DNA of 64,000 nucleotides from Octopus vulgaris. Lineage: Eukaryota. Position 1 is the first letter of the stretch; every line of letters begins with the position of its first letter. The notes under the pieces were generated by a model. The model had not been told where the DNA came from, made no database searches, and saw only the letters and a list, made by a program, of their open reading frames with translations. Shown piece after piece: positions 17,829-47,208 of this stretch. Where the stretch lies: contig OX597822.1 in assembly GCA_951406725.2 (NCBI GenBank), positions 16,182,001 through 16,246,000 on the forward strand, read 5' to 3'. Both the position numbers and the translations under genes were made by a program.

Positions 17829-19521
17829 TTCGCTTTTATTGATTTCTATCGTTTTATTTTTTCTTTATAAATATTAATGGTTCTGATTATTAAAAATATA
17901 ATTTTCTCCGTGGTCTTGTTTGTTAGGTCAGTAAATATGTCAGTTAGCGGTGATTGCAGATACCATTTCTATTGTTCTTGTCGATGTTGTTGTTGGTTTT
18001 TGGAAGCTAACGTTGATAGCAGCAATCAACTTTCGTAGTGTGCATTTCATGTCTACATTGTTTTCATAACTGACTTCACAGCAATGAAAACCAACCAATA
18101 ATCAGCTCTAATTCTTCATACTCCATAACATTGTTTTGTTTACTTTCGGTGTGTGCGTGTTTTTATTTTAATAATATTTTCTCTTTCTCTGTTCTGCCCA
18201 TACACAAACGGCTTCTGCATGGCGCCACAGTACTGGCCGAAACCATCGAAGTCAGTGTTGAATTATTCACTGAACTCCAACCCAACTTTGAGCAAGTGGG
18301 ATTACTTTATATTGTTATTGTTTGTGTTGTTGTTGTTTTGTGTGTGTCTGTGGTGTTTATGTGTGTGTATGTGGTTTTTATTTGTGTGTACGGGCGTTGG
18401 TTTGTGTGTGTCTAAGTGAAAATTTGGCTCCGGATGCAGGAGAAGAAGGAAAACTCAGGTTTCATGGCGCTACAAGCATAACATCATTAATTTTTTTTTT
18501 AAATCATAAAGTAATGTAGAATAAGAATGTAATAATGTTAAAATAATACCATAATGAAAGATAAATATTAATGGGAATTTTATCCATTATCGACAAAGAA
18601 AAATGAGATTTGAAAGAGTTATTAGATAAATTAGAAAGAGACGGTAAATATTCATTTAATGCATTCTCAAAATATTTGTGTTACCAAAGCGTTGGTTTGG
18701 AATAAACAGTACAGTTCTATACAAAATTTATTGTGGTATTTAGTGACATTCCTTTATGTTCAGAGTTCGTATTCCACCAGGATTGAAGTTGCCTTTCAAT
18801 ATTTCATAACCGATAATATAATTACTAATCAAGTAAATACAGAAGTTAATATAATAATTAAGGACACTTTCTCATAGTGTGTTGCCTTGTACCTATGAGA
18901 CAAATCCCAATATATCTGAATTATAAATCAAAGATGAGAAAGCTAGACTGAAGGACTAGGCCGAGCCTTGGTTAGGCTTCCTGGTGTTTTAGCTTCAAAT
19001 CTCACAAATGCTAAATAGGATTTCAGTTATTCTGAGTCGATAAAATAAATAACTAATTGAAAATTAGTAGCGTAGATTGAATCTGCAGTATTCCTCAAAC
19101 GTGTTGGCTTTGTTTCCTCTTTATGAATTACTACAACGGCACTGGTTAAGGTAAACCTGGCTGAAATTAAACTTGCACAAATCGAAACTTTCATCTGGTT
19201 ACAATACAGAATCGATTTTTATTCACTGCACTCAAACCGTTTATAGCATACTGACAGCCCCATTGCTTCGAAAAGTTTGATTATTGCATTTAAGTTATGT
19301 TAATGTTTTTACTGAATATTCGCGTGAAGCGAATGGTACCCCAAAAAACTAAATTGTGAAGTTCTACCCACCTTCTCTACGGAATCTTTTCATTAATGCC
19401 ATACAAATCTTATTTCTACTAACATAGAGAACCACTGCATTGAATCACATGATAATATAATTAACTCCGAATCTACATTCTTAAATATATAAAAAAAGAA
19501 TTAAATAACTATGCTATAATA

Positions 19522-19791
19522 CAATTGCAGCGTGGAAGGTGTTTATAAGCCATTTAAGAAACCGTTAGATTCACTTCAAAATTTTAATTTAATTTGCCAA
19601 AATATTTTCGTCGCTTTGTGACCGCGACCTGTTCACTGATAAAATTCCGTGCTGCCATATTCCAGTGAACAGGTCGCGGTCTCAAAGCGTGTTTCTGAAA
19701 TGGCTTATAAACATCTTCCACGTTGCAATTGTTTTCATTCCAGCACACGATCTCAGATCAGGTCACTTGCTATGCAAGTACACCTCCGCAA
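19522..19791. mobile_element. Small fold-back hammerhead-bearing element (probable non-autonomous PLE derivative), copy 1
   Basis: Nested inverted arms, a unique 3' tail and a 12-bp TSD TATGCTATAATA (19510-19521 / 19792-19803). Same family as 24077-24674. Confidence 0.8.
19596..19640 (-). ncRNA. Minimal type I hammerhead motif, G3:C8 variant
   Basis: atca-GTGAACA-g-gtcgc-ggtcacaaa-gcgac-GAAA-atat-TT-tggc. Confidence 0.6.
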
Positions 19792-19800
19792 TATGCTATA

Positions 19801-23696: not shown

Positions 23697-24108
23697 CGAA
23701 AGGTGTTACATTACGAAAAAGAAAAAAAATTGCAGTTGTTTCAACGAATTCTATTAAAGTTCTTTAATACAAACCTAATAATCTCTGTATCTATGAAGGA
23801 TCGAGAGAGACGCTTCGTTATATTTAGTTCCATCTTATGTTACAAGTTCGAATCCAACCATAACGGCTATTGTTCGTCATTCTGAGTTCGATAAAATTAT
23901 TATACTGGACATTTATTGTAAATAACATTTAAATTTAGATATTTCTTGACTATTAACCAAGGTTGACAGAAAAGGGTATAAGTCAACCCTGCATTTTTGT
24001 TTCAGCTCCATTTTGTTTGTTTCTTTTTTTATTTAAAAAATGTGACGCGTATTTTACCGAAAAATATTGTTTTTTACAATTGCAGCGTGGAAGGTGTTTG
24101 TAAGCCAT

Positions 24109-24459
24109 GTGGAGGCGCAATGGCCCAGTGGTTAGGGCAGCGGACTCGCGGTCATAGGATCGCGGTTTCGATTCCCAGACCGGGCGTTGTGAGTGTTTAT
24201 TGAGCGAAAACACCTAAAAGCTCCACGAGGCTCCGGTAGGGGATGGTGGTAATCCCTGCTGTACTCTTTCACCACAACTTTCTCTCGCTCTTACTTCCTG
24301 TTTCTGTTGTATCTGTATTTCAAGGGGCCGGCCTTGTCACTCTCTGTGTCACGCTGAATATCCCCGAGATTACACGTTAATTTCACGAGCAGGCTGTTCC
24401 GTTGATTCGGATCAACCGGAACCCTCATCGTCATATCCGACGGAGTGCTTCCTCCTCTC
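24109..24459 (+). mobile_element. tRNA-Arg-like SINE family B, full length, with TSD
   Basis: A box TGGCCCAGTGG and B box GGTTTCGATTCC. 10-bp TSD TGTAAGCCAT (24099-24108 / 24460-24469). Confidence 0.9.
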
Positions 24460-24486
24460 TGTAAGCCATTCAAGAAACACACAAAA

Positions 24487-24531
24487 GTCAGTGAACACGT
24501 CGCCGTCGTAAAGCGACGAAAATATTTTGAC
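24487..24531 (+). ncRNA. Minimal type I hammerhead motif, G3:C8 variant
   Basis: gtca-GTGAACA-c-gtcgc-cgtcgtaaa-gcgac-GAAA-atat-TT-tgac. Stems I and II pair perfectly and stem III is the palindrome AATATT. Confidence 0.7.
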
Positions 24532-24699
24532 AAATTAAAACTTAAATGTTGAAGTGAATCGAACGGCTTTTGTGTGTTTCTTAAATGGCTTACAAACACC
24601 TTCCACGCTGCAATTGTTTTCATTTCAGCACACGATCTCAGATCAAATCACTTGCTATGCAGGTACATCTCCGTAATATTGTTTTTTATCTTATCTTTT

Positions 24700-29475: not shown

Positions 29476-34659
<5,184 letters not shown>

Positions 34660-41589: not shown

Positions 41590-44400
41590 TTATTGCTTAT
41601 TTAGCTCGGGTTCGAATTTATCAATAAAATTCTTTTCTCTGATTCTCCTCTCGATTTCATTTGGGCTGTGTAATTTGTAGAACGGAAATATTATATACAT
41701 TTTCCGGCCACATGTTGCTAGGTGGTTACTCAAAGGTATCTGACGGACCTCTGGGTCTCTAATCTGTTGTCGGTGTACACGTGAGCGTTCTAATAGTGCG
41801 TTTCCCGTCTGACCTACATATATTTCTTCACAATTTTGGCATTTGATGCAGTAAATTAAATTTCTGCTTTTGCAGTTCATATTCGCGTTTGTGAATATTT
41901 TCCCGGTTTTTGTGTTTATATATTGGCCGGTATGTATGAATTGGCATGTGCCACATCGGCTATCATTGCATTTAGATACAGTGAATGTTTGGTCTTTGTT
42001 GTTAAGGTCAAAGTTTGCCTTTGTTAGTAATTTTTTCAAGTTTTTAGGCTGTCTTTTACTAAGCACCATAGCTCGATCCGTGATTATGTCTTTTAATTCA
42101 TTACTTTGGGCAATGATTGGTAGGTTTGTTTTGGCAATGTTGAAGATATTCTGGTGACATGGGTTGTGTGTCACTATGAATGGTATGACTTGATCTTGTT
42201 TTCCTTTTCCTTGGGTTGTCCTAAGTTGTTGTATGGGTATTTTTATAGCCCGCTGTATGCCATTTTCTATAAGTAGAGATGGGTATTTTTGTTTGAGCAA
42301 AAATTCTTTTAGTTCTATTAGGCGTTTGTTCCTGATATTTGCATCTTCTACAATGGTACAAATTCTTCTGGCTAGGCAGTATGGGATGTTACGTTTTGTA
42401 TGTGGTGGATGGCACGACTTAAAATTTAGGTATTGATGTGTGTCTGTGTGTTTATAGTATATATCTGTGGTGATGGTGGTGTCTTTTTTAATTACCATTA
42501 TATCTAGGAATGGTAATTTGGTACTACTCATCTCCTTTGTAAATTGGAGAGATGGGTGTAGGTTGTTCAGGAGGATATTGAACTCTTCCAGAGTATTTAG
42601 AGATTCTGTCCAGATTATGAAGCAGTCGGCAAGGTATCTCTTCCATGCCTTTTCAATATACTTTCTAAATCCAGTGCCATAGTTTACCTCCCCCTTGGTA
42701 GAGTTGTTCTTCTAAGTATCCCATTACAGAGTTGGCGTAAACGGGAGCAAACCTCGTTCCCATCGCCGTGCCTCTAATTTGGATGTAATTCTTTCCATTG
42801 AAGAAGAATGTGTTGTTTTCTAGAATAAGTTTGACTGTGTCTAATATAAATGGCACTGTGAATCTGCTGGGAATCACTTCTCTATGTTTTTCTAACCAGT
42901 ATTTAATCGCCTTTATTCCTAAATCGTGTGGAATATTGGTGTAGAGGCTTACCACATCAAAACTTAGTAAAACTGAATTTGTTTCTGTTGTTTTGGGAAG
43001 ATGGGACAGGAAGTCGATGTCATCCCTGATGAAACTGGGTATGTAAGTACATAGTGGTTTCAAAACAATGTCAATAAAATTGCTTAGACGGTGGGTAGGG
43101 CATGCTGGATCAGCTATAATACATCTCTTTTGGATGTAGTAATTTTATGTACTCACTTTCTTGTTCTTTTACTGCCTGTTGAATATCTTTTGATTTGTGT
43201 ATTTTTGGTAAGCCGTAGAAGTTGCTGGGTTTTGGTTCGAAATTGGTGATGTAGTCTCTTTCATTATCCGTAAGTGAGTTGTAGTGTGTTGAGATCAGGT
43301 TGTTGATCTTTTTCATGATGTGGTGGTCTATATTTGCGGGTATTTCACAATAGAAGGTTGTATCCTTCAGTTGGTCCTCAACCAAATCCTTATAGTATTC
43401 GGTATCCATAATAACAATTGCACCACCTTTATCTGCTTGTTTAATTATTATGGTTTGATCGTTTTATATACGTTTACATGCAGACATCTCTGATTTGCTA
43501 ATGTTTGGCCTAACATTGGTATTGCGTCTAAGGGGAAATTTAGACAGGATATCAATGTATTGATCAAGGTAGTTATTTCTTCCTTTTGGTGGGGTGAAAT
43601 TTGATTTATTCCTTACTAGAGATTCATCAATCTCATTACTTTTGTTAGCGAAGAATTCTACAAGTCGTAATTTTCGACACAATTTTTGGATATCCTCCTT
43701 TAATTCTTGGTGGTTGGCTGTTGGTGTAGGTGTGAATTTCAGTCCCTTTGACAGAAGTTGGATTTCATCATTGTCAAGATCTCTTTTTGATAAATTAATT
43801 ATTTTAGGATCTATACGTTCAGTTGTTTGGGGTATGTTTCCTCTTCAATTTTTTCTTTCTCCGGTGTTTGTTGTCCTGACGTAAAAAAATGGATTTTTTT
43901 CTGTTTAAGATTTATATTCAGTTGATGTTTGCTTGATGTTTTGGCTGTGGTATTTTACTTGGTTTCGTTATGTTTTCTGTCTTGTTTTTGGTTTTAATGT
44001 ATGCTACTTTTCAATTTCTTGTTAGCATTGTTTTTAACCACCTGGAGAAATGATCTGGGTTTACTTCTAGATCTAGATCGGTTTTTTGTCCACTTTCTTG
44101 TGGGTAATCTCTGTTGAGGTCTTGAAAATGATCTGTTATTTCTACTGCTAATGGTCTGTTCAAAAGAATATCTATTTTGTTTGTGCTTTTTGTTCATGTT
44201 GTGTGCATTAGGGTGTTTGCATACAAAAAGGGAAGAGTTCTTACCGTAGTTCGTCTTCGATTCGTGGTGAAACGGGTGTTCATGTTGCCACGTGTTCTGG
44301 TGTATGTTGCGTTGGTGAGGTTGTCCACTTTTAATACTATTTCTCGGAGTTCTGGTGTCTTTACCGTAATTTATAGCATATTTATCGAGAAATAATTGTT
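41590..44400 (-). pseudogene. Frameshifted PLE reverse transcriptase / GIY-YIG endonuclease ORF
   Basis: Pieces ADKGGAIV, FYGLPKIHK, SFDVVSLYTNIPH, QIRGTAMGTRFAP, WKRYLADCF (YxDD changed to YLAD) and LPFLD. Cys-rich linker CNDSRCGTC, then NLIYCIKC..IYVGQTG..ERSRVH..E..PELN. The C-terminal 313 aa (41590-42531) is open. Confidence 0.92.
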
Positions 44401-45463: not shown

Positions 45464-45508
45464 GGCCAAAGTTCTTTCGTCACACTCCTGTGACCGCATC
45501 AGTGGTCC
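45464..45508 (-). ncRNA. Hammerhead-like motif (A9C core) in 3' pLTR
   Basis: ggacca-CTGATGC-g-gtcac-aggagt-gtgac-GAAA-gaac-TT-tggcc. Confidence 0.55.
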
Positions 45509-46008: not shown

Positions 46009-46812
46009 TCATATGTTGTGGTGTGCGCTATTGCTCCATTCTAGTTTTCTATTCAGGCTAGGTTTATTTTCTATTATATGTGTAGCTTCTGTAATTTGTC
46101 TAATTGTTGCATCTGTTCTATGTGTGGACAATATCTTAATCTCTATGTTATTGATTGATCCCCCGTGTTCTTGTTCGGCGTGTTGGTACAGAATCGATGA
46201 GCTTTTACCTTCCTTGAGTTGTCTCCAATGTTCATTCACCCGCTCACCAATGCTTCTTGCAGTTTCCCCTACGTATGTTACTGTCTTGTTACTGCATCGT
46301 CCCTCTATACATCTTATACTATAGACCACATTTCTGGCTTTACAGTTCGTTTGTGGGCTAAATCTACATACAGTGCAATAGTTATCCGTACAGAGAGTTC
46401 TACTAAAAGGATAGCTTCTACCAATTATAGATCTGATAGGGTTGCCTGGCTTTTCAACAACCTTAATTCTTAGTTTAAGTTTATCTAGGGTCCTTCTAAA
46501 GCGGTACGCTAGTTCACCTCCAGGGGTGGTGTCAACGAACATGACACTCTGGTATTTATGGCTATCATACCAAGAGTTGGCCTTCCCTATTTTCTTTTTT
46601 GTCCTTTCTATAGTGTTCCATGACTTGTTCCTATAGAGTGGGCAAATCCCATTCCTATCATTACATAATATATTATCAAATTTCTTCATGGCTCCTTTGT
46701 ATACTCTGATCCTTTCTTTATGGCTGTAACCTGAGAACTGCATGCGGTGAATGAAGTACTGTATGTGTCTTTTTAATTCTGTAGGCTCGCACATGCGTGA
46801 CACATTTCTCAT
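46009..46812 (-). CDS. PLE thumb/linker plus GIY-YIG endonuclease (5'-truncated ORF, possibly Hydra-like clade)
   Basis: SGYS, PLYR, VMFVDTTPGGELA, CTDNYCTVC, NVVYSIRC..TYVGETARSIGERVNEH, RQITEA, LNRK. RT core is absent. The clade assignment is from memory. Confidence 0.85.
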   Translation of the reverse strand: MRNVSRMCEPTELKRHIQYFIHRMQFSGYSHKERIRVYKGAMKKFDNILCNDRNGICPLYRNKSWNTIERTKKKIGKANSWYDSHKYQSVMFVDTTPGGELAYRFRRTLDKLKLRIKVVEKPGNPIRSIIGRSYPFSRTLCTDNYCTVCRFSPQTNCKARNVVYSIRCIEGRCSNKTVTYVGETARSIGERVNEHWRQLKEGKSSSILYQHAEQEHGGSINNIEIKILSTHRTDATIRQITEATHIIENKPSLNRKLEWSNSAHHNI

Positions 46813-47163
46813 TATTCTGAAGTTATATCAGAATGAGATTTTTTTTTTTTCCATTAGATTTATTATTATTATTACTAATATTGTTGTTATACATACATAC
46901 AAGCATATGTAATGATAATAATGGGTGGATGTAAACACATGAACAAAATTAGAACAAAAGCAACAACAACAAAAACAAAATACAAATTACAAGAATGTAT
47001 ATAACCAGAAGATACAAATATTACAGGCATCCCCCCACACACACACTAAATAAACATAGACGCACATAGAGATATAAACATGCGCAAATGAAGACATACA
47101 ATAGAAATATAAAATGGCTGACGGTTAGTAAGGAGAGACACAAGTAAGTGAGAAGAAAACAAA

Positions 47164-47208
47164 GGACCACTGATGCGGTCACAGGAGTGTGACGAAAGAA
47201 CTTTGGCC
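47164..47208 (+). ncRNA. Hammerhead-like motif (A9C core) in inverted 5' pLTR
   Basis: Identical to the 45464-45508 copy. Confidence 0.55.

What the first reader, a model, noticed from the sequence alone, without database searches (positions are those of the whole stretch)
24487..24531. Natural hammerhead ribozyme motif with a compensatory G3:C8 core swap (GUGAACA)
Seen: a complete minimal type I hammerhead layout (stem I gtca/tgac, stem II gtcgc/gcgac, GAAA, palindromic AATATT stem III, UUU cleavage triplet), with the core reading GTGAACA instead of CTGANGA. The same core occurs in all three copies in the window (19630-19636 minus, 19665-19671, 24491-24497), so it looks like family consensus rather than decay. 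Established: C3 and G8 form a tertiary Watson-Crick pair in the active hammerhead, and engineered double mutants restore activity. Inference: the double change keeps that pair, which suggests selection for cleavage. Standard CUGANGA searches would miss this family. I cannot confirm whether it is already described.
Basis: partly seen in the sequence, partly recalled or inferred. Interest (0 to 1): 0.85.

Follow-up and report, generated by a model that had tools for sequence, protein, structure and literature searches.

The report
Octopus retroelement hammerhead, flipped core pair
A jumping gene present in over 5,000 copies in what is likely an octopus genome carries a hammerhead RNA motif with one core base pair flipped (G3-C8 instead of C3-G8); we found this flip in print only as a lab-made mutant, and the motif likely still cuts itself slowly, which has not been tested.

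Summary
The motif is the hammerhead (HHR) of a Penelope-like element (PLE), in the terminal repeat about 57 nt before the RT/GIY-YIG start codon. G3-C8 is family consensus: 5,040 exact genomic matches against 3 canonical ones, and fixed in four successive subfamilies. Sister families in the same genome carry the homologous HHR with C3-G8, U3-A8, U3·G8 or C3•A8, and with compensatory changes in stems II and III, so the fold is under selection and G3-C8 is likely derived. Mismatched cores (C3•A8, A9C) also amplified, most reverse-transcribed templates were uncut, and the window copy is a decayed insertion. Best reading: a slow, dimer- or protein-assisted ribozyme that trims tandem transcripts (cleavage about 0.55). 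In the papers I could read, U3-A8 is the only natural Watson-Crick alternative and G3-C8 appears only as an engineered partial rescue. Lünse 2017, the likeliest precedent, was not available. This scan has two unchecked notes of G3-C8 motifs behind PLE RT genes in other genomes. Verdict: new variant of a known kind.

The parts
24487..24531 (+). Type I minimal hammerhead motif of PLE family A (subfamily A2), G3-C8 core; predicted cut 3' of 24527
   Evidence: family counts
24491..24497 (+). Core G3 U4 G5 A6 A7 C8 A9
24498..24498 (+). Extra base between A9 and G10.1 (family G; C in this copy, can pair with G12)
   Evidence: PMC4209133 reports this extra base in PLE HHRs
24499..24517 (+). Stem II GTCGC/GCGAC with 9-nt loop
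24521..24526 (+). Palindromic AATATT (2-bp stem III; predicted dimer helix)
24585..24679 (+). First ~32 codons of the PLE ORF (MAYKHLPRC...), which form the element's 3' end; ends fall near 24617-24620 or near 24679 (optional ~60-bp tail)
   Evidence: ATG runs into the ORF in L256 and L257; 72 short, 109 long and 21 other ends among 202
24076..24487 (-). Inverted, 5'-truncated arm of the same insertion (24076-24108 and 24460-24487), split by a SINE
24109..24459 (+). SINE-like repeat inserted later, with 10-bp duplication TGTAAGCCAT (24099-24108 / 24460-24469)
   Evidence: SINE identity is recalled, ARAGORN finds no tRNA
24063..24076 (.). Left target-site duplication AATATTGTTTTTTA (right copy 24675-24688)
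19518..19797 (.). Second family A insertion: minus arm with complete G3-C8 HHR (core 19630-19636), plus arm (core 19665-19671) with a deletion removing GAAA
45466..45505 (-). Homologous HHR of sister family D (C3-G8, C at position 9, stem II GTCAC/GTGAC), about 500 nt after its GIY-YIG ORF end (46012-46827, minus)
47167..47206 (+). Second family D HHR (likely the inverted arm)

Best explanation
This is the hammerhead motif in the terminal repeat of a high-copy Penelope-like retroelement, fixed with a flipped G3-C8 core pair, and it likely works as a slow, dimer- or protein-assisted self-cleaving ribozyme. Shown: the element is pLTR-ORF-pLTR with an RT plus C-terminal GIY-YIG ORF of about 1,070 aa (length inferred from overlapping copies); the HHR lies about 1 kb after the stop codon and about 57 nt before the ATG of the next unit; insertions end about 90 or 150 nt past the predicted cut. 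Inferred: G3-C8 keeps the tertiary 3-8 pair that positions the 2'-OH of nucleotide 8, while U4, G5, A6, G12, A13, A14, A15.1 and U16.1 are unchanged in the family consensuses. Two HHRs, from tandem repeats or in trans, would pair through AAUAUU to build stem III. A cut after U17 would release the unit RNA from read-through or tandem transcripts with a short leader. The cut must be slow or late, because reverse transcription starts downstream and copies through an uncut HHR. The window copy itself is predicted inactive.
For: Element link: 25 of 30 endonuclease-end loci (one is the query locus) carry the HHR unit downstream, as do 8 of 8 long-ORF loci. HHR plus tail is joined to the ORF start in L257, and in L256 from within the HHR. 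Pfam GIY-YIG hit. Fixation: 5,040 G3-C8 pattern matches, reversed control 0, against 3 canonical. Four subfamilies at 7.1, 3.8, 2.0 and 1.4% median divergence all have G3-C8. Their consensus changes hit 0 of 30 core/stem positions against 16 of 114 others, including 5 of 9 loop II positions (p = 0.019). Contigs from four organism labels list no other letter at 5% or more across the core and stem II 5' strand. Covariation: families A, D, B and C form one clade (UFBoot 100) with 3-8 = G-C, C-G, U·G/C-G/C•A and U-A; stem II = GTCGC/GCGAC, GTCAC/GTGAC, GTTGC/GCAAC; pair 15.2-16.2 = A-U or G-C. On 16 hand-picked rows stem II is 97.5% paired and 0 of 500 shuffles reach the covariation score. The HHR lies outside the ORF, so coding does not explain its conservation. 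C3G/G8C partially rescues a PLE HHR that cleaves only with protein present (PMC11167929). Weak hint: 16 of 62 hand-tallied 5' junctions end at the predicted cut or one base before it.
Against: No cleavage data. Sister lineages amplified with non-Watson-Crick 3-8 (C3•A8 9 of 29, U3·G8 12 of 29), and family D, which has long open frames and 3,856 first-look candidates, has C9 (26 of 26). G3•G8 is 32 of 88 G3/non-C8 rows listed (hand count), against C>G at 6 of 76 changes elsewhere, and some insertions carry it in both arms, so mismatched RNAs were probably copied. HHR cleavage was dispensable for PLE insertion in vitro (PMC11167929). In the monomer fold G3 pairs with U17; the AAUAUU duplex is only -0.2 kcal/mol; the two-copy fold does not give the stem III dimer. 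If both 3 and 8 change, a Watson-Crick outcome arises 1 time in 3 by chance. The junction excess is p = 0.012 against uniform but 0.02-0.13 against the neighbouring rate, and microhomology confounds it.
Confidence: 0.58

Rival explanations
1. The fold is kept as a non-cutting structural signal (binding site for the element's protein, RT positioning, or translation leader), derived from a hammerhead. Position 3/8 drifts and G3-C8 was carried along by a successful master element.
For: C3•A8, U3·G8 and A9C families amplified; G3•G8 excess; most templates uncut (5,655 intact-stem matches, against 16 of the first 100 of 644 non-intact matches ending at the cut); cleavage dispensable in vitro and no RNA-seq ends at the cut in PAc (PMC11167929).
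Against: The catalytic-core bases and U16.1 stay fixed across families whose proteins are only 34-56% identical. Three of the fixed 3-8 states are Watson-Crick, and the others are pyrimidine-purine wobble types one step from C-G or U-A.
Confidence: 0.3
2. It is a fast, autonomous ribozyme, and G3-C8 is a fully functional alternative core helped by unseen tertiary contacts.
For: Intact copies fold stems I and II with pair probabilities mostly above 0.9; the palindrome is perfect; G3-C8 has been stable across four subfamilies.
Against: Stem III is 2 bp; PLE minimal HHRs cleave poorly in vitro (PMC4209133); engineered G3-C8 only partly rescues; efficient cutting would remove the template, yet thousands of copies run through the site.
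Confidence: 0.08
3. It is a chance look-alike in a repeat, multiplied by transposition.
For: All family A copies descend from a few masters; no Rfam hit among listed matches; the heptamer is at chance level.
Against: Canonical-core homologues sit at the same place in sister elements with the same or compensated stems; 1 hit in 300 shuffles.
Confidence: 0.02

Closest known systems
Minimal type I hammerheads of metazoan Penelope-like elements (Cervera & de la Peña 2014, PMC4209133)
   Same: In the pLTR; extra base between 9 and 10.1; G10.1-C11.1; short palindromic stem III; solo and opposite-strand copies.
   Different: Core pair. Its Fig. S3 has 53 C3-G8, 2 U3-A8 and 1 U3·G8 among 56 rows, none G3-C8 and no cephalopod.
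Natural U3-A8 core covariant (Perreault 2011, PMC3088659; Schistosoma Cercyon PLEs, PMC4209133)
   Same: Natural compensatory change at the 3-8 tertiary pair; family C here has it too.
   Different: U3-A8 needs two transitions through wobble-type intermediates; G3-C8 needs two transversions and reverses the purine/pyrimidine side.
Poseidon PAc of Anolis (Frangieh 2024, PMC11167929)
   Same: HHR near the ORF start; two 3' ends inside the ORF giving an optional tail; AT-rich targets; engineered C3G/G8C partly active and protein-assisted.
   Different: Natural PAc core is C3-G8 and overlaps the ORF start; here the HHR is about 57 nt upstream, the tail is about 60 bp, and the ORF has a CxxC linker.
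Neptune/Nematis EN+ PLE clades (Craig 2021, PMC8557442)
   Same: RT, then CxxC linker, then C-terminal GIY-YIG; tandem and inverted insertions.
   Different: Short CxxC-to-C spacing looks more like the Nematis rows of Fig. S2 (compared by eye); there is a long insertion between RT motifs 3 and 4; clade not resolved.

Membership tests
Hammerhead ribozyme (type I) | Three-way junction with stems I and II closing the core | tested here: met
   stem II covaries across families
Hammerhead ribozyme (type I) | Invariant U4 G5 A6, G12 A13 A14, A15.1-U16.1, H17 | tested here: met
   triplet UUU
Hammerhead ribozyme (type I) | Literal C3 and G8 (CUGANGA consensus) | tested here: not met
   G3 and C8 in 5,040 matches against 3 canonical
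Hammerhead ribozyme (type I) | Watson-Crick complementarity between positions 3 and 8 | tested here: met
   G-C; sister families C-G and U-A; the 3D pair itself is inferred
Hammerhead ribozyme (type I) | Stable stem III as a monomer | tested here: not met
   2 bp with a 2-nt loop, not formed in the fold; normal for PLE minimal HHRs
Hammerhead ribozyme (type I) | Site-specific self-cleavage 3' of H17 | not testable with these tools
   only contigs were available; junction tally inconclusive
Rfam hammerhead families | Covariance-model match | tested here: not met
   none among listed matches; canonical-core sister loci were also not matched
PLE minimal HHR | Located in the pLTR, with extra base after A9 and palindromic 15.1-16.1 region | tested here: met
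PLE minimal HHR | Cleaves as a dimer | not testable with these tools
   two-copy fold did not favour the stem III dimer
EN+ Penelope-like element | Single ORF with RT and C-terminal GIY-YIG | tested here: met
   1,025-aa open frame with YVDD; PF01541 E 1.8e-05; Pfam RVT_1 not hit, RT motifs read by eye
EN+ Penelope-like element | pLTR-ORF-pLTR, inverted 5'-truncated arm, optional 3' tail | tested here: met
Neptune or Nematis clade | CxxC linker and RT placement against reference PLEs | tested here: inconclusive
   linker present; no named references in the tree
Retrozyme | Non-coding tandem HHR repeats without an ORF | tested here: not met
   the unit is the 3' end of an ORF-bearing PLE

The most novel reading that the evidence does not exclude
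The first natural, catalytically active G3-C8 hammerhead, fixed by compensatory evolution in a retroelement with more than 5,000 copies. One octopus PLE clade would then have walked the 3-8 pair through C-G, U·G, C•A, U-A and G-C, plus A9C, tuning the ribozyme to be slow enough to leave RT templates intact: a natural allelic series for testing what PLE hammerheads do, and a sign that many 'HHR-less' PLEs hide swapped cores.
Probability: 0.35. Interest if true: 0.72.

Novelty: new variant of a known kind. Interest (0 to 1): 0.52.

Why it matters
The C3-G8 tertiary pair was deduced from structure and engineered swaps; the natural Watson-Crick alternative I found in print is U3-A8. A natural G3-C8 family shows evolution crossing the harder two-transversion path. 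What PLE hammerheads are for is an open question, since cleavage was dispensable in vitro. This clade offers five core states at one homologous site, in elements with known copy success, so cleavage rate can be set against transposition directly. Practically, descriptors that fix CUGANGA miss thousands of motifs in this genome, and statements that some PLE clades lack HHRs may need rechecking with a free 3-8 pair. It remains a variant of a well-known ribozyme in a known element class.

Tried and rejected
Rfam: no hammerhead among listed matches. Hypothesis that G3•G8 was the ancestral intermediate subfamily: rejected; the oldest subfamily is mostly G3-C8 (18 of 27 rows) and G3•G8 rows are mostly scattered on the tree. 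Retrozyme or satellite reading: rejected. Naiad: rejected, the endonuclease is C-terminal. Sequencing runs: no RNA holder listed on record; six holders only guessed to be RNA, all as contigs, so no cut-site or expression test. Metagenome scan for outgroup elements: 2 short loci with no usable 3' repeat, so the ancestral 3-8 state rests on published PLE HHRs. First subfamily test was invalid (gap columns counted) and was redone. Family B downstream tree unresolved. Two-copy fold did not show the dimer. Full-length family D 5' ends were not examined. Not available to read: Lünse 2017, Przybilski & Hammann 2007, Nelson & Uhlenbeck 2008, Martick & Scott 2006.

Full report
Observation. The layout is at the stated coordinates: stem I GTCA/TGAC, core GTGAACA (G3 24491, C8 24496), one extra base at 24498, stem II GTCGC/GCGAC, GAAA, palindrome AATATT and U17 at 24527. 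A descriptor with any Watson-Crick 3-8 pair finds only this site in the window and one hit in 300 shuffles. The heptamer alone is at chance level. The 'three copies' are two insertions; the one at 19518-19797 has two inverted arms, and its plus arm lacks GAAA. Rfam lists no hammerhead.

Host element. The genome is 2.8 Gb. A protein named Octopus vulgaris by its source (P0001) matches it at 100%, so the host is inferred to be an octopus. The ~190-bp unit starting at the motif has 1,649 first-look candidates. One copy lay 1.4 kb behind a GIY-YIG fragment. Searching with that fragment gave 4,554 candidates; 25 of 30 fetched loci carry the HHR unit downstream, one carries part of it and four do not reach it. 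All 8 long-ORF loci carry it. The longest frame is 1,025 aa with RT motifs, a CxxC linker and GIY-YIG. In L257 the repeat with HHR and tail joins the ORF start, and L256 does so from within the HHR; the ATG is 56 nt after the predicted cut there. Insertions end about 33 or 93 nt into the ORF (72 and 109 of 202 ends), like the two RT start sites of PAc (PMC11167929). The window copy is a 5'-truncated insertion with a 14-bp target duplication and an inverted arm later split by a SINE.

Is G3-C8 the consensus? Yes. The G3-C8 pattern has 5,040 exact matches and the reversed control none; the canonical core with the same stem II has 3, all from another family. Non-C8 copies number 356. Of 143 aligned copies, 130 fall into four subfamilies at 7.1, 3.8, 2.0 and 1.4% median divergence, all with G3-C8 consensus, although many rows were deliberately chosen for non-C8. 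Consensus changes among them touch 0 of 30 core and stem positions against 16 of 114 others (p = 0.019). Contigs from four organism labels show no listed variant at the core; they are near-identical relatives, not independent origins.

Sister families. The canonical hits led to an old family B with the same stems I and II and the same extra G, but flanks that align poorly with family A. Among 29 BLAST-selected rows (one tandem duplicate left out; two are not homologous over the core), 3/8 is U·G 12, C•A 9, C-G 4, other 4. B units follow related ORF ends in L195, L199 and L203. Family C has U3-A8 with stem II GTTGC/GCAAC (six loci). Family D is young, has 3,856 candidates and frames up to 1,312 aa, and has C3-G8, stem II GTCAC/GTGAC and C at position 9 in 26 of 26 HHRs from 30 loci; two lie in this window. 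A tree on 412 C-terminal columns, using broken fragments with X at stops, gives A sister to (D,(B,C)) with UFBoot 100. On 16 hand-picked rows, stem II is 97.5% paired and the 3-8 pair shows GC 5, CG 4, UA 3, UG 1, other 3; no shuffle reaches the covariation score, but the rows are related and chosen, and stem I of family C is misaligned. Since 53 of 56 published PLE HHR examples are C3-G8, G3-C8 is inferred to be derived in family A.

Mechanism. Established knowledge (recalled, and consistent with PMC8495972): G12 is the general base, the 2'-OH of nucleotide 8 is essential, and the 3-8 pair positions it. G8C kills activity and C3G partly restores it, also in a PLE HHR that cleaves only with its protein. 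I infer a slow ribozyme that pairs with a second copy through AAUAUU or is helped by the element's protein, and that trims tandem transcripts just before the ORF. It cannot cut efficiently before reverse transcription, since thousands of copies run through the site. U17 may matter: an engineered G3-C8 variant did worse with C17 than with G17 (PMC3884650, 'data not shown'), and here G3 can still form a weaker pair with U17. The window copy is predicted inactive: its C at 24498 can capture G12, stem I is cut to 4 bp, and the inverted arm forms a -55.8 kcal/mol hairpin over it.

Against. C3•A8, U3·G8 and A9C families amplified. G3•G8 is 32 of 88 G3/non-C8 rows listed (hand count), while C>G is 6 of 76 changes at other C sites, and several insertions have it in both arms. 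The dimer helix is marginal in prediction. As an in-genome test I tallied by hand the first 100 of 644 matches with a break near the cut. After dropping 38 internal deletions, duplications and point variants, 16 of 62 junctions end at the cut or one base before it: p = 0.012 against uniform, 0.02-0.13 against the neighbouring rate. Microhomology confounds this, so it is only a hint.

Literature seen. PMC4209133: parts 1-2 of 4 of the text and parts 1-2 of 3 of the supplement. PMC11167929: parts 1-2 of 4. PMC8557442: passages, one supplement search and one supplement part. PMC3088659, PMC10085705, PMC3884650, PMC8495972, PMC6765202: passages. Eight full-text searches and these readings showed natural U3-A8, one U3·G8 row and engineered G3-C8, but no natural G3-C8. 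Lünse 2017 on PLE HHR variants, with its supplement, and three biochemical papers on the 3-8 pair were not available, so prior description cannot be excluded. In IMG/VR, one stem II pattern gave 2 of 47 complete G3-C8 layouts against 126 of 135 canonical. Two unchecked notes from this scan describe G3-C8 motifs with an extra base behind PLE RT genes in other genomes; I did not test them.

Verdict. A real, family-fixed G3-C8 hammerhead homologue in a PLE terminal repeat: a new variant of a known kind. Homology to PLE hammerheads about 0.97; slow assisted cleavage about 0.55-0.6; unreported in nature about 0.6. Interest 0.52.

Noticed in passing
window 45466-45505 (-), 47167-47206 (+), ORF end 46012-46827 (-): Young sister PLE family D with an A9C hammerhead core (CUGAUGC) fixed in 26 of 26 copies seen; a second unusual natural core variant.
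   Followed up: partly
L141, L149, L153, L162, L121, L219: Old subfamily with a C3•A8 core (CUGAAAA), 9 of 29 family B rows; a possible intermediate between C-G and U-A.
   Followed up: partly
L080, L090, L094, L174/L175: G3•G8 in both arms of single insertions, and an excess of C8G overall, suggesting mismatched RNAs were used as templates.
   Followed up: partly
L067:5471-8545 (-): The RT has an insertion of roughly 60 aa between motifs 3 and 4 compared with canonical PLE rows, where Craig 2021 describe an IFD only for N-terminal EN PLEs and telomerases; linker spacing looks Nematis-like.
   Followed up: no
window 29819-33766 (-): Uninterrupted 1,316-aa non-LTR retrotransposon frame (RVT_1, weak zf-RVT).
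   Followed up: no
window 41593-43144 (-): Broken RT plus GIY-YIG fragment of another EN+ PLE; no clear HHR found in 1.3 kb downstream.
   Followed up: partly
L004, L045 and other full 3' ends: The ~1 kb terminal repeat is largely (TACA)n/(CA)n microsatellite and copies often abut (TA)n, so the element spreads microsatellites through the genome.
   Followed up: no
L182, L186, L187, L192: Old family A fragments continue into another repeat with CCCTAA-like runs, apparently a captured piece in a different element.
   Followed up: no
L010 and similar copies: Many short insertions start 15-25 nt upstream of stem I (near GATGCAGCACGG), a possible RT stall just past the HHR fold; the sample is biased by the query.
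   Followed up: no
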